From a phage: 64,000 nucleotides of DNA. Location of the stretch: NCBI GenBank assembly GCA_031520405.1, contig GCA_031520405.1_4842.1. One strand, written 5' to 3'. Shown here piece by piece: positions 1,420-4,992 of the stretch; position 1 is the first letter of the stretch; each line of letters starts with the position of its first letter. The notes under the pieces are model-generated. The model ran no database searches. It worked only from the letters and a program-made list of their open reading frames with translations, and had not been told where the DNA came from. The position numbers and the translations under genes are program-made.

Positions 1420-2118
1420 ATGGCCAGACCATTTGAAAAATATTTCTACCATGAATCGTTGTTGAAATATATCCATGTTTTCAACGCTATCATGTCGGAT
1501 TTAAAAGTCAAAACCGAACGTGGCTTGATGGAAATCCCGCTGCATATGGCCATTGGCCGCCGTAATGACCTCAACAGGAACGTGCCAGCCAATATGCTGC
1601 CATTTGCAACAATGTCCTTTGGTCAGTTCGAAATCAATAAACAGGTGACCAAGTCGTATCATAATCAGATATCGACTGCAACTGCGCGGTCCAAACAACG
1701 AATTCCGATCATTATAGATTTTGAATATAACATCAGAACGAAGAAACTGGTCGAAATGCTACAGGTGTTGGAACAAATTTATTCTGTGTTCACTCCTTCT
1801 GTTGACTGTCAGATAAAGGACAACGACACTTTATCTCAAGATCAGAACGTGAAGATAATGTTGGTAAATCACACGATTTCTGACAACTGGGAAGGAGACG
1901 CAACAGAATCACCACACATAGATTGTTCATTCAATTTTCAATTACATGGTCACATCTATGGAGAAGATTATTGGGTTGATGATGGTTCGGGCGGTGGGGA
2001 TCCAAACGTCATCAAAGAGATAATTATTGAAATGTCTAATGATTTGAACATGCCATGGTCGGAACTTCCTGAATGGTTCCGAGTTGATAAAGACGGCATA
2101 CATCATCCGGAGGATTGA
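1420..2118 (+). CDS. tail sheath stabilizer/tail completion protein gp15-like
   Basis: synteny and loose similarity to T4 gp15; start abuts gp14 stop. Confidence 0.55.
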   Translation: MARPFEKYFYHESLLKYIHVFNAIMSDLKVKTERGLMEIPLHMAIGRRNDLNRNVPANMLPFATMSFGQFEINKQVTKSYHNQISTATARSKQRIPIIIDFEYNIRTKKLVEMLQVLEQIYSVFTPSVDCQIKDNDTLSQDQNVKIMLVNHTISDNWEGDATESPHIDCSFNFQLHGHIYGEDYWVDDGSGGGDPNVIKEIIIEMSNDLNMPWSELPEWFRVDKDGIHHPED

Positions 2119-2120
2119 TC

Positions 2121-2801
2121 ATGAGCAATATGTCAGAAAGGTTACTCGCCACACTTGATGCGGTGACTGCCCGAGACGAAGTTGGGAAGGAGGCAATGGA
2201 GGCTGTCGCCCCTCGTCCAGGTATTGACTTCGATGAAAATACAGGTGAATGGTTTGGTGAACGTCCGGAAGGGTATCAGCCGATTCCTGAACCGCCTTCA
2301 TTGGAGGATATTGCTTCCAAGGAATCCAAAGTACCTGAGTTTGCGGACACTGATGCTACAACGGATTACAAACGGATACGCGACACAACATATGCCATGC
2401 AAGAAGCCACAATGTTCATGATGGGACAAGCCGCTAAATTGGCTGCATCCACAGAAGCTCCGCGAGCATTTTCTGTTTTCCGTGAATTGGGTGAACTCAT
2501 GCGAGGTCTGAATAAAGACTTGATGGAAAACCAGAAAACCATCAAGGCGGTAACAGGTGATAAAGAACCACCTGTTGATGACACGACAGTGGATGTTACA
2601 ACTTCACCAGACGGAACAACAACAGTATCGGTTGGGAAAAAGGCGCGATCTTCTCGCGATTTATTGAAGACGATCGAAGATGCACGCCGCCGCGCTGAAG
2701 AAAGAGCACAAGCAAAGGCCGCACAACAACCAGAAGATGAAATCATTGATGGTGAAACAGTTGATGTGAAGGAAGAAGACGATGGCGTATCAGAAGCGTG
2801 A
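2121..2801 (+). CDS. terminase small subunit (gp16-like)
   Basis: ATG 2121 preceded by GGAGG (track start 2115 is TTG); central region resembles T4 gp16; overlaps start of large terminase. Confidence 0.6.
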   Translation: MSNMSERLLATLDAVTARDEVGKEAMEAVAPRPGIDFDENTGEWFGERPEGYQPIPEPPSLEDIASKESKVPEFADTDATTDYKRIRDTTYAMQEATMFMMGQAAKLAASTEAPRAFSVFRELGELMRGLNKDLMENQKTIKAVTGDKEPPVDDTTVDVTTSPDGTTTVSVGKKARSSRDLLKTIEDARRRAEERAQAKAAQQPEDEIIDGETVDVKEEDDGVSEA

Positions 2802-4992
2802 TATAGAATATGCCCCAATTAAAACGGGGTTCAAAATAGACGATGTGAAATTGCGTATGGACCAAACGTTCATGCGCAAACCTTCTGTGCGTGCTCCTCG
2901 AGTCGAGTTAATGCTGACAGATGAACAAGAAGACGAATTCGTTGAATGTTCTATGGATGCACACTACTTCGCCGCCAACTATTACAAGATAACCACGATC
3001 GATAAGGGCTTTATCCTTTTCGATATGCATGATTATCAGAAGCAGTTGTTCCACGACTTTCAGGACTATCGATTTAATGCGGTCGTCCAGGCTCGTCAGT
3101 CCGGAAAATGTGTAAAAGGCGACACGCTTGTCACAGTTTACGATACTCTCAGCCAAGAGGAGTTGCTCCTGACTATAGGGGAGCTTCACAGCCGCTTCGA
3201 GGACGTCAACCACGCTGTGCCGCTGAATACCATTGGCAACCATGACAAGTTCGTGGACAGCCGCTTCGGCAAACGTTACTTTGTACAATCCGATAGTGGC
3301 TGGGTTCCGGTTATCGCAGCGCATAAGACGAAGAAATATGCGGAATTCGTTATTGTCACCGTTACCGGAAGGCGAATTAACGTGGCTGATGAACATATGT
3401 TCTTCACTCCGGACATGAAGGAGATATTTGCCAAAGACCTGAATGCTGGGTCATACATCATGACGACAGAAGGTCCAGAAGAAATCCGTGAGATTTGGCA
3501 GACTGGTGAATATCACCATATGTACGATCTTCAGGTCAAATCTAGTGATCAACGTTATTACACGAATGGCTTTCTCAGTCATAACACGACCGTGGTGGCG
3601 GCGTTTCTTCTTTGGTATGCGATGTTCCATTCTGATAAGGAAATCGCAGTACTGGCAAACAAAGAGAAACAAGCGATAGAAATTCTTGACCGTATCAGAA
3701 AAGCATACCAAGACCTTCCATTCTTCCTTCAGCAGGGTTGTGAGAAGTTTGGTTCTACCCTGATAGAGTTTGAGAATGGTTCTAAGATATACGCTTATGC
3801 CACGTCTTCGGACTCCATCCGTGGTCGTTCTGTATCGCTCTTGTACGTTGACGAAGTCGCGTTTATCGAAAACGACTTTGAATTTTGGGAATCAACTTTC
3901 CCAGCCATTGCATCTGCCGATACATCACGCTGTATTTTGACAAGTACTCCGAAAGGCCAGCGAGGGTTGTTCTATGATATTGTCACCAAAGCAGATCCGC
4001 GCCATCCACAATACAACGACTTCCACCTAACTGAAGTCCCATGGTATAAGGTTCCGGCATATACCAAAGATCCAGATTGGGAAACCAAACAACGTGCCCG
4101 TCTGGGGGATGCTCGTTTCGATCAAGAATTTGGCATTAAGTTCCGTGGTTCCGTGGGTTCATTGATTCCGGCCAAATGCTTAGATAAAATGACGTCCAAG
4201 TTGTATCGGGAACCTAATGAATTCACCAAGATTTATAAGGAATACGACCCACAACGTCTCTACTTTGGGATTGCGGACACTGGGAAGGGGGTGGAAGGAG
4301 ATTATTCCGTCTTAACAATTCTGGATATAACTGAATATCCGCATGTCATAGCAGCCAAGTACAGGAATAATACGATACCTCCTATGATGTATGCATACAC
4401 GATAGCTGATATGTGCACCGAATACGGGGAATGTCCTGTCCTTGTTGAAACAAACAACGACGTCGGCGGTCAGGTTATTACAATTCTTTATCAAGAGATA
4501 GAATATCCAGAAATCATATTCACATCAACAGATAACAAAGGGACGGGGAAACGGATTGGTGGACGTAAACCGGAACCTGGTATCAATACCAACAGAAAAG
4601 TCCGATCTATCGGTTGTGCTAACCTGAAAGCGCTCATTGAGAAAGAAATGTTGGTGATAGAAGACCAGGACACGATAGATGAACTCAGTACATTTGTGTT
4701 CAAAGGCGCTCGGTATGAAGCCGATGACGGTTGTCACGATGACTGTGTCATGCCGTTGGTCTTATATTCATGGGCAGTAAAACAAGAATGGTTCAGTGAT
4801 TTGACATCTACAAGTATTTCTCAGGACATGAGAAACCGAATGTCTTCAACTGAATCTCAGCAGGTATTCCCATTTGGTGGTTTAGTCGTTGGAGACACCC
4901 CATCCGAAACTGAGCATTTGCCTGGTTTCGGGGGTATTCAAGTTTTCAACGAAATGTCAGGGATGACCATGGATGAGTGGGTTAAGAATTGA
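2782..4992 (+). CDS. terminase large subunit (gp17-like), intein-containing
   Basis: strong similarity to T4 gp17 around TTVVAAFL...YVDEVAF...TSTP; Walker A RQSGK|T interrupted by 159-aa insertion. Confidence 0.9.
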   Translation: MAYQKRDIEYAPIKTGFKIDDVKLRMDQTFMRKPSVRAPRVELMLTDEQEDEFVECSMDAHYFAANYYKITTIDKGFILFDMHDYQKQLFHDFQDYRFNAVVQARQSGKCVKGDTLVTVYDTLSQEELLLTIGELHSRFEDVNHAVPLNTIGNHDKFVDSRFGKRYFVQSDSGWVPVIAAHKTKKYAEFVIVTVTGRRINVADEHMFFTPDMKEIFAKDLNAGSYIMTTEGPEEIREIWQTGEYHHMYDLQVKSSDQRYYTNGFLSHNTTVVAAFLLWYAMFHSDKEIAVLANKEKQAIEILDRIRKAYQDLPFFLQQGCEKFGSTLIEFENGSKIYAYATSSDSIRGRSVSLLYVDEVAFIENDFEFWESTFPAIASADTSRCILTSTPKGQRGLFYDIVTKADPRHPQYNDFHLTEVPWYKVPAYTKDPDWETKQRARLGDARFDQEFGIKFRGSVGSLIPAKCLDKMTSKLYREPNEFTKIYKEYDPQRLYFGIADTGKGVEGDYSVLTILDITEYPHVIAAKYRNNTIPPMMYAYTIADMCTEYGECPVLVETNNDVGGQVITILYQEIEYPEIIFTSTDNKGTGKRIGGRKPEPGINTNRKVRSIGCANLKALIEKEMLVIEDQDTIDELSTFVFKGARYEADDGCHDDCVMPLVLYSWAVKQEWFSDLTSTSISQDMRNRMSSTESQQVFPFGGLVVGDTPSETEHLPGFGGIQVFNEMSGMTMDEWVKN
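3109..3585 (+). mobile_element. mini-intein (Hint domain only, no homing endonuclease domain) in terminase P-loop
   Basis: insert begins Cys (CVKGDTLV), ends His-Asn (FLSHN) followed by Thr +1; excision restores RQSGKT Walker A matching T4 SRQLGKT. Confidence 0.75.

What the first reader, a model, noticed from the sequence alone, without database searches (positions are those of the whole stretch)
3109..3585. Mini-intein interrupting the Walker A P-loop of the large terminase
The terminase ORF is ~126 aa longer than T4 gp17. The extra segment starts with Cys, ends with His-Asn, is followed by Thr, and sits exactly between GK and T of the ATPase P-loop. Removing it restores RQSGKT, matching T4 SRQLGKT. 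At 159 aa it has no room for a homing endonuclease domain, so it is a Hint-only mini-intein. Packaging ATPase activity would depend on protein splicing.
Basis: partly seen in the sequence, partly recalled or inferred. Interest (0 to 1): 0.6.

Follow-up and report, generated by a model that had tools for sequence, protein, structure and literature searches.

The report
Known mini-intein in phage large terminase
The large terminase gene of this Cba120/Vi01-like (Kuttervirus) phage really is interrupted, in the middle of its ATP-binding loop, by a 159-residue self-splicing mini-intein, but this was published and annotated for the same phage genus in 2013, so the finding is correct and ordinary.

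Summary
Both the observation and the interpretation hold. ORF 2782-4992 (+) encodes a 736-aa T4 gp17-type large terminase. Nucleotides 3109-3585 encode a 159-aa insert that begins with Cys, ends with His-Asn and is followed by Thr. It sits between the Lys and Thr of the Walker A motif (RQSGK|TT).

The insert passes the curated cut-offs of two intein models. A profile of its relatives matches solved inteins (VidaL 1e-13, gp41-1 1e-11, Cat 4e-9). An AlphaFold model (pLDDT 92.6) is a pure HINT fold, and all 50 listed PDB matches are inteins or intein-like (BIL) domains. No endonuclease domain is present.

Related terminases without the insert read RQSGK-TTVVAAF (T4-type RB14: RQLGK-TTVVAIF) with no gap. 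These are Erwinia phage phiEa2809, several Vibrio phages and RB14.

It is not new. The window is 99.6% identical to phage Cba120. RefSeq records of phages Marshall and Magnus annotate "intein from Cys110 to Asn268", the same residues, and two genome announcements state it. The GK|T P-loop site is the "classic" intein insertion site.

What this work adds:
- The intein is a contiguous member of the family that includes the atypically split TerL inteins (AceL-TerL/GOS-TerL/Cat).
- Its alleles appear mosaic between Ackermannviridae genera.

Splicing itself was not tested here, and I found no report of it for this intein.

The parts
2782..4992 (+). terL: large terminase precursor ORF (736 aa plus stop), T4 gp17 type
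   Evidence: Pfam Terminase_6N 2.8e-16; a sub-threshold match to Terminase_6C (20.9 bits, cut-off 22.6). 99.6% nt identity to the Cba120/SPTD1 terminase large subunit.
2782..3108 (+). N-extein (109 aa), ending in the first half of Walker A (RQSGK, nt 3094-3108)
   Evidence: Aligned with RQSGK/RQLGK of intein-free terminases.
3109..3585 (+). Mini-intein, 159 aa (Cys110-Asn268 of the precursor), HINT fold only
   Evidence: The same residues are annotated as a mat_peptide 'intein' in the Marshall and Magnus RefSeq records.
3109..3132 (+). Block A (CVKGDTLV) with the Cys1 nucleophile
   Evidence: C1 is invariant in 27 relatives and V2 is conserved in at least 90%. Coordinates.
3199..3246 (+). Variable loop (EDVNHAVPLNTIGNHD, intein aa 31-46). 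Relatives are naturally split here or carry longer inserts here.
   Evidence: This stretch holds the model's only pLDDT<50 segment (aa 34-36; 10-residue block means 55 and 76). It varies in length in alignment A4. 104 of 150 relatives start with Met, mostly at the equivalent of aa 35-46.
3367..3405 (+). Block B (GRRINVADEHMFF). His96 is invariant. Ala93 occupies the usual Thr position of TxxH.
   Evidence: A93, D94 and H96 are invariant in 27 relatives. VidaL reads CAFNH and Cat reads CSDNH at the aligned position.
3514..3543 (+). Block F (HHMYDLQVKS) with invariant Met138 and Asp140
3556..3588 (+). Block G (YYTNGFLSHN) plus the +1 Thr nucleophile
   Evidence: L156, S157, H158 and N159 are invariant. 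The +1 residue is T in 94 and S in 54 of 150 relatives.
3586..4989 (+). C-extein (468 aa): the rest of Walker A (TT), the remainder of the ATPase domain and the nuclease domain
2115..2801 (+). Context: small terminase gene overlapping the terL start. No free-standing homing endonuclease gene lies between them in this window.
   Evidence: The gene order matches Marshall and Magnus. Contrast with phages 'barely' and XF4.

Best explanation
Nucleotides 3109-3585 encode a class 1, endonuclease-free mini-intein. It is inserted between Lys109 and Thr of the Walker A P-loop of the T4-type large terminase of a Kuttervirus (Ackermannviridae) phage.

Inferred mechanism, following the canonical class 1 pathway:
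1. The 84.5-kDa precursor folds its HINT domain.
2. Cys1 makes an N-S acyl shift at the Lys109-Cys110 bond.
3. The hydroxyl of Thr+1 attacks the thioester, giving a branched intermediate.
4. Asn159 cyclises and releases the 18.3-kDa intein.
5. An O-N shift leaves a normal peptide bond, giving a 66.2-kDa terminase with an intact RQSGKTT P-loop.

Before splicing, the two halves of the P-loop are separated by a 159-residue domain. The precursor should therefore be unable to bind or hydrolyse ATP, or to package DNA.

The intein has no endonuclease, so it cannot home on its own. It most likely persists because only a precise deletion restores function.

Shown here: sequence blocks, fold, insertion site, distribution among relatives. 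Inferred: splicing chemistry, inactivity of the precursor, reason for persistence.
For: - Coordinates and junction residues are read directly from the sequence.
- Pfam Intein_splicing and TIGR01445 both score above their curated cut-offs.
- A profile of 27 relatives hits only solved inteins with a matched stretch that passes on its own. These include inteins the literature cites as active in trans-splicing: Cat 4e-9 and gp41-1 1e-11 (uses described in PMC11766414). VidaL scores 1e-13. Other hits are the NrdJ-1, CDC21, DnaX, PolB and TFIIB inteins.
- The AlphaFold2 model has pLDDT 92.6 and pTM 0.86. All 50 listed Foldseek PDB hits are inteins or BIL domains; the best is VidaL (TM 0.77/0.84, E 7.7e-11).
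- C1, A93-D94-x-H96, M138, D140 and L156-S157-H158-N159 are invariant over relatives with only about 30-40% overall identity.
- Intein-free terminases are contiguous exactly at the junction: Erwinia phage phiEa2809 (78% identical), Vibrio phages K352 and Bakedbeans, and RB14 gp17.
- Contiguous relatives from metagenomes share the same RQxGK|C...SHN|[ST]T site.
- Independent annotation exists: Marshall CDS note 'intein from Cys110 to Asn268' with mat_peptide features, Magnus likewise, and the papers PMC3853055 and PMC6763660.
- Kelley et al. 2016 (PMC5050341) call Lys|Thr of the P-loop the 'classic' intein site. They showed that the five other TerL-type inteins they tested splice efficiently (the GK|T-site TerL1-a intein was not among them).
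- Cys1/Thr+1 is a known nucleophile pair, reported for 12% of inteins (PMC11766414).
Against: - There is no experimental evidence of splicing for this intein or any Ackermannviridae ortholog. I found none in the literature held.
- Block B has Ala where the canonical TxxH has Thr, although VidaL also reads Ala there.
- The scores against the curated models are only just above the cut-offs (36.3 vs 35.8; 24.9 vs 24.5).
- The high-confidence model depended on a 46-row alignment. A two-row alignment gave pLDDT 45.
Confidence: 0.93

Rival explanations
1. A domesticated, regulatory intein. It is retained in this branch of Ackermannviridae because conditional splicing (dependent on redox state, temperature, or the timing of TerS or prohead availability) gates terminase activation after translation, rather than as a purely selfish remnant.
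For: - In the phage collection, 284 records have exteins at least 60% identical to this one and 285 records hold at least 80% of the intein. Among the intein-free junctions listed, only the Erwinia phages phiEa2809 and Bue1 belong to such close relatives. So the intein is near-universal in this branch although it lacks an endonuclease.
- The catalytic residues are invariant.
- Kelley et al. discuss possible regulatory roles of P-loop inteins (PMC5050341).
Against: - The intein has a single Cys (Cys1), so no intramolecular disulfide trap is possible.
- The intein evolves much faster than the exteins: dN 0.162 against 0.009 between two Kutterviruses. That fits a requirement to splice only.
- Intein-free relatives, including the Ackermannviridae phages phiEa2809 and Bue1, are viable.
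- Persistence is explained more simply by the need for a precise deletion.
Confidence: 0.05
2. A degenerate HINT insertion that no longer splices and is tolerated as an extra terminase subdomain.
For: - Block B Thr is replaced by Ala.
- Curated-model scores are only marginally above threshold.
- No splicing data exist.
Against: - The insert separates the Lys and Thr of the Walker A motif. These are conserved in every gp17-type terminase aligned here and are, from general knowledge of P-loop NTPases, needed for nucleotide binding and hydrolysis. An unspliced protein should be dead, yet hundreds of viable isolates carry the insert.
- All nucleophiles and assisting residues are invariant across distant relatives.
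- The Ala at block B is shared with VidaL.
Confidence: 0.02

Closest known systems
The terminase large-subunit intein already annotated in Salmonella phage Marshall (NC_022772, Kuttervirus) and Klebsiella phage Magnus (NC_049462, Taipeivirus)
   Same: Same gene, same site, same length and the same residue numbers (Cys110-Asn268). Published in PMC3853055 and PMC6763660. The Cba120, PhiSH19 and S118 records carry a 100% identical intein, though it is not annotated as such there.
   Different: The window carries the Cba120-type allele, which is only 78.6% identical in protein to the Marshall/Vi01-type allele, while the exteins are 98.8% identical.
Atypically split TerL inteins from phage metagenomes (AceL-TerL, GOS-TerL, the engineered consensus Cat) and VidaL
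   Same: - The closest matches by sequence and by structure: PDB 6vgv VidaL and 6dsl Cat.
- Same host protein (T4-type TerL) among the relatives found here.
- The low-confidence loop of the model (aa 31-46) coincides with the point where 104 of 150 relatives begin, mostly at the equivalent of aa 35-46.
   Different: - This intein is contiguous (cis-splicing), not split.
- It uses Cys1/Thr+1, whereas GOS-TerL uses Ser1/Cys+1 (PMC11766414).
- I could not read the original AceL-TerL and GOS-TerL papers, so their exact insertion site was not checked.
Mycobacteriophage TerL1-a inteins (Kelley et al. 2016, PMC5050341)
   Same: [quoted passage not shown] They infer that splicing is required for the active site and for pentamer assembly.
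   Different: The host terminase family differs (Terminase_1, against Terminase_6 here), and no close sequence relationship was tested or shown. In that study, the Terminase_6 inteins of mycobacteriophages sat at a different site (the C-motif).
gp41-1 and other 'fractured gene' phage inteins in P-loop NTPases
   Same: Homologous HINT domain: E = 1e-11 with the profile. Some relatives sit at a GK|S/T site followed by C-extein sequences unlike TerL; I judge these to be helicase- or clamp-loader-like, which was not tested.
   Different: The host protein differs, and gp41-1 is naturally split at the canonical site.

Membership tests
Intein (class 1) | HINT fold | tested here: met
   AF2 model with pLDDT 92.6. 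All 50 listed Foldseek PDB hits are inteins or BIL domains; the best TM-score is 0.77/0.84 to VidaL.
Intein (class 1) | N-terminal nucleophile (Cys/Ser) in block A | tested here: met
   Cys1 (TGT, nt 3109-3111), invariant in 27 relatives.
Intein (class 1) | Block B TxxH motif | tested here: inconclusive
   His96 is present and invariant. The Thr position is Ala93 (ADEH). The solved intein VidaL also reads Ala there. So this is a variant of the motif, not a loss of the His.
Intein (class 1) | Block F Asp and block G penultimate His plus terminal Asn | tested here: met
   D140, H158 and N159 are invariant.
Intein (class 1) | +1 nucleophile (Cys/Ser/Thr) on the C-extein | tested here: met
   Thr at nt 3586-3588. 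Relatives have T (94) or S (54) among 150.
Intein (class 1) | In-frame insertion in a conserved host-protein motif, absent from orthologs, whose removal restores the motif | tested here: met
   RQSGK|TTVVAAF is contiguous in phiEa2809, K352 and Bakedbeans, and RB14 reads RQLGK|TTVVAIF.
Intein (class 1) | Autocatalytic protein splicing that yields ligated exteins and a free intein | not testable with these tools
   No experiment was possible, and no published splicing assay for this intein was found.
Mini-intein (no homing endonuclease) | Absence of a LAGLIDADG, HNH or other endonuclease domain between blocks B and F or elsewhere | tested here: met
   Only Intein_splicing is found by Pfam. The 159-aa model is strands of the HINT fold plus one short helix and a 16-aa loop.
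Class 3 intein | No N-terminal nucleophile is used; Trp (block B), Cys (block F) and Thr (block G) form the WCT triplet | tested here: not met
   Cys1 is present. Block F position 4 is Asp140, not Cys, and the intein has no Cys other than Cys1.
Atypically split intein (AceL-TerL/Cat type) | Intein encoded as two separate polypeptides with a short IntN of about 25-37 aa | tested here: not met
   A single uninterrupted ORF runs across the whole intein. It is homologous to that family but contiguous.

The most novel reading that the evidence does not exclude
The endonuclease-less intein is not an inert remnant. It is kept as a post-translational switch on DNA packaging, and its alleles are shuffled between Ackermannviridae genera. 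The shuffling might occur by recombination started by the free-standing F-LimIX-type homing endonuclease gene that sits sporadically between terS and terL, a form of 'collaborative homing' for an intein.
Probability: 0.07. Interest if true: 0.55.

Novelty: already known. Interest (0 to 1): 0.12.

Why it matters
For this window it is mainly an annotation point. The terL product should be described as a precursor with an intein (aa 110-268) and a mature 577-aa terminase. Phylogenies or protein clustering that use TerL should remove the intein first.

More widely, the Ackermannviridae intein is a readily available, cultivable, cis-splicing relative of the atypically split TerL inteins used in protein engineering. 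It could serve to study how such splits arise. None of this changes current understanding of inteins or of DNA packaging.

Tried and rejected
- The search for homologous proteins with the intein alone returned only two proteins, so it was useless for building an alignment.
- The two-row alignment gave an unusable model with pLDDT 45. A 46-row alignment of whole proteins from the representatives search was accepted and worked.
- The original papers on GOS-TerL (PMC4661395) and Cat (PMC7232844) are not held. The exact insertion site of AceL-TerL and GOS-TerL therefore could not be confirmed from the literature.
- Literature searches for intein + terminase + Kuttervirus found nothing, and 'atypical split intein' + terminase found nothing.
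- Readings considered and rejected:
  - Class 3 intein: Cys1 is present and there is no WCT triplet.
  - BIL domain: the insert sits in a conserved motif and has a +1 nucleophile.
  - A hidden endonuclease: none by Pfam or in the model.
  - A conserved non-splicing terminase subdomain: the insert is absent from phiEa2809, Vibrio phages and T4-type phages, and the catalytic residues are invariant.
- The 395-483-aa 'large' relatives at the same site have low-complexity inserts that may be gene-calling read-through. They were not pursued.

Full report
**1. What is in the sequence**

ORF 2782..4992 (+) encodes 736 aa. It matches Pfam Terminase_6N (2.8e-16), and more weakly Terminase_6C, just below that model's cut-off. 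Codon 110 is TGT (nt 3109-3111). Codons 267-268 are CAT AAC (3580-3585), and the next codon is ACG, Thr.

The segment is 477 nt, or 159 aa. The N-extein ends ARQSGK and the C-extein starts TTVVAAFLLWYA. Excision gives a 577-aa protein with RQSGKTT. The calculated masses are 84.5, 66.2 and 18.3 kDa. T4-type gp17 (RB14) is 610 aa and reads SRQLGKTTVVAIF at the aligned position.

**2. Identity of the window**

The terL gene is 99.6% identical in nucleotides to Salmonella phage SPTD1 and Escherichia phage Cba120. These belong to Kuttervirus (Ackermannviridae), the genus given in the taxonomy of the Marshall record. The gene order is tail sheath stabiliser, terS, terL, tail sheath, as in the annotated relatives.

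**3. Is the insert an intein?**

- *Sequence models.* The isolated segment passes the curated cut-offs of Pfam Intein_splicing (36.3 against 35.8 bits) and NCBIfam TIGR01445, the intein N-terminal region (24.9 against 24.5).
- *Solved structures, single sequence.* It weakly matches solved inteins: Cat, VidaL, the CDC21 intein and gp41-1.
- *Wider relatives.* A search of 1.84 billion representative proteins found 701 relatives with E up to 1e-3.
- *Solved structures, profile.* A profile of 27 contiguous relatives (alignment A4) matches VidaL at 1.3e-13, gp41-1 at 1.2e-11 and Cat at 4e-9. It also matches the DnaX, CDC21, NrdJ-1, PolB and TFIIB inteins. Nothing other than inteins has a matched stretch that passes on its own.
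- *Conserved residues.* Across these relatives, which are about 30-40% identical overall, the invariant positions include C1, A93-D94-x-H96 (block B), M138 and D140 (block F) and L156-S157-H158-N159 (block G). The block B Thr is Ala here, as it is in VidaL.
- *Predicted structure.* An AlphaFold2 model built on a 46-row alignment has pLDDT 92.6 and pTM 0.86. The only low-confidence stretch lies in the loop at aa 31-46. All 50 listed Foldseek matches in the PDB are inteins or BIL domains. The best is VidaL (E 7.7e-11, TM 0.77/0.84).
- *No endonuclease.* No endonuclease domain is seen by Pfam or in the model. "Hint-only mini-intein" is correct.

**4. Intein-free alleles**

A 36-aa peptide spanning the spliced junction finds uninterrupted matches in two groups. 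One is the Erwinia phages phiEa2809 and Bue1; phiEa2809 is classified in Ackermannviridae, genus Nezavisimistyvirus. The other is many Vibrio phages.

In the full-length alignment, phiEa2809 (78% identical), Bakedbeans and K352 read RQSGK-TTVVAAF with no gap, and RB14 reads RQLGK-TTVVAIF. The window and Vibrio phage Kuja carry an intein at exactly that point.

In the phage collection, 284 records have exteins at least 60% identical to this one, and 285 records hold at least 80% of the intein. The intein is therefore near-universal in the Enterobacterales-infecting branch of the family, but not in the whole family.

**5. How it most likely works**

The mechanism is the canonical class 1 pathway, and it is inferred from the conserved residues, not measured:
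1. N-S acyl shift at Cys1.
2. Trans-esterification to Thr+1.
3. Cyclisation of Asn159.
4. O-N shift, leaving a normal peptide bond.

Cys1/Thr+1 is a documented nucleophile pair (PMC11766414). The HINT domain separates the Walker A Lys from the following Thr, so the precursor should be inactive. For mycobacteriophage TerL inteins at the same Lys|Thr site, Kelley et al. reached the same conclusion. They showed that the five other TerL-type inteins they tested splice efficiently (the GK|T-site TerL1-a intein was not among them), and they call this the "classic" P-loop insertion (PMC5050341). I found no splicing experiment for the Ackermannviridae intein itself.

**6. Prior knowledge**

- The RefSeq record of Salmonella phage Marshall (Kuttervirus) carries the CDS note "intein from Cys110 to Asn268", with mat_peptide features for the intein and the joined terminase.
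- Klebsiella phage Magnus is annotated in the same way.
- The Magnus announcement (2019) says the same of its large terminase gene (PMC6763660).

The finding is therefore already known, down to the residue numbers.

**7. What this work adds**

(a) *Family placement.* Of the 150 best representative relatives, 104 are proteins that start with Met, mostly at the equivalent of intein aa 35-46. They run through ...SHN|[T/S] into a C-extein. 107 of the 150 relatives have a TerL-like C-extein start, and the 43 others begin with different sequences, which I take to be other P-loop NTPases. This is the architecture of the naturally, atypically split TerL inteins AceL-TerL and GOS-TerL and of their consensus Cat, with an IntN of 25-37 aa (PMC11766414). 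The other 46 relatives carry the intein internally. 36 of them show the same RQxGK|C...SHN|[ST] junction; 29 of these are 150-200 aa long, and a few are much longer. The split point coincides with the length-variable, low-confidence loop of the model. The window's intein is thus a contiguous member of that family.

(b) *Mosaic alleles.*

| Comparison | Exteins, aa identity | Intein, aa identity | Intein aa 71-135 |
|---|---|---|---|
| Window vs Marshall (same genus) | 98.8% (dN 0.009) | 78.6% (dN 0.162) | 66% |
| Marshall vs Magnus (different genera) | 88.7% | 84% | 86% |

This incongruence suggests recombination between intein alleles. It rests on five sequences, and no formal test was run.

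(c) *Nearby endonuclease gene.* Some relatives (phage 'barely', Dickeya phage XF4) carry a free-standing F-LimIX-type homing endonuclease gene between terS and terL. The window does not. The intein of 'barely' is of the Marshall type (99.4%), not the XF4 type. This gives no support for co-transfer of that gene with the intein.

**8. Verdict**

Novelty: already known. Interest is low. The residual novel reading (a regulatory role, or endonuclease-assisted allele exchange) is possible but has no support so far.

Noticed in passing
window 3109-3585, compared with L001 2501-2977 (Marshall) and L009 2501-2977 (Magnus): The intein and exteins tell different histories. The window and Marshall share 98.8% extein but only 78.6% intein identity (66% over intein aa 71-135). 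Marshall and Magnus, from different genera, share 86% over that same segment. Nucleotide identity drops from about 90% to 57-68% inside the intein. This suggests recombination between intein alleles.
   Followed up: partly
L013 1630-2511 (Salmonella phage barely); L010 1309-2187 (Dickeya phage XF4): A free-standing homing endonuclease gene (F-LimIX type) lies between terS and terL in some Ackermannviridae but not in this window. The intein of 'barely' is 99.4% identical to Marshall's and only 72% to XF4's, so there is no sign that the endonuclease gene and the intein moved together.
   Followed up: partly
window 3199-3246 (intein aa 31-46): This loop is the only low-confidence part of the model and varies in length among relatives: Kuja and SD25 carry 14-20 extra residues there. 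In 104 of 150 metagenomic relatives the protein begins, mostly at the equivalent of aa 35-46 (atypically split TerL inteins).
   Followed up: yes
L007 1102-3216 (Vibrio phage vB_VmeM-32 terL): This terminase carries two inteins, one at the P-loop and a second at the Walker B motif (YVDE|C...SHN|CAF). Its annotated start lies inside the first intein, probably because the record begins near there. Metagenomic TerLs also show inteins next to Walker B (...SHN|CLYLDEF) and at ...SHN|CFLGSS.
   Followed up: no
L006 about 2250-2840 (Campylobacter phage CP21 terminase): A related intein sits three residues earlier in the same P-loop (PRQ|C...SHN|SSKST), so this is a distinct insertion point.
   Followed up: no
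L008 1911-3182 (Pseudomonas phage Deifobo 'UvsX-like recombinase'): The ORF starts with an IntC-like segment ending ...SSHN|SGKS, directly after stop codons, and a homing endonuclease gene follows. It looks like a split intein in UvsX of the VidaL type.
   Followed up: no
P0005, P0074, P0079, P0099 (metagenomic TerL proteins): These are inteins of 395-483 aa at the same GK|C site. Their inserts, at the loop position, are low-complexity sequence and not a recognisable endonuclease. They may be read-through of an intervening element or a gene-calling artefact.
   Followed up: no
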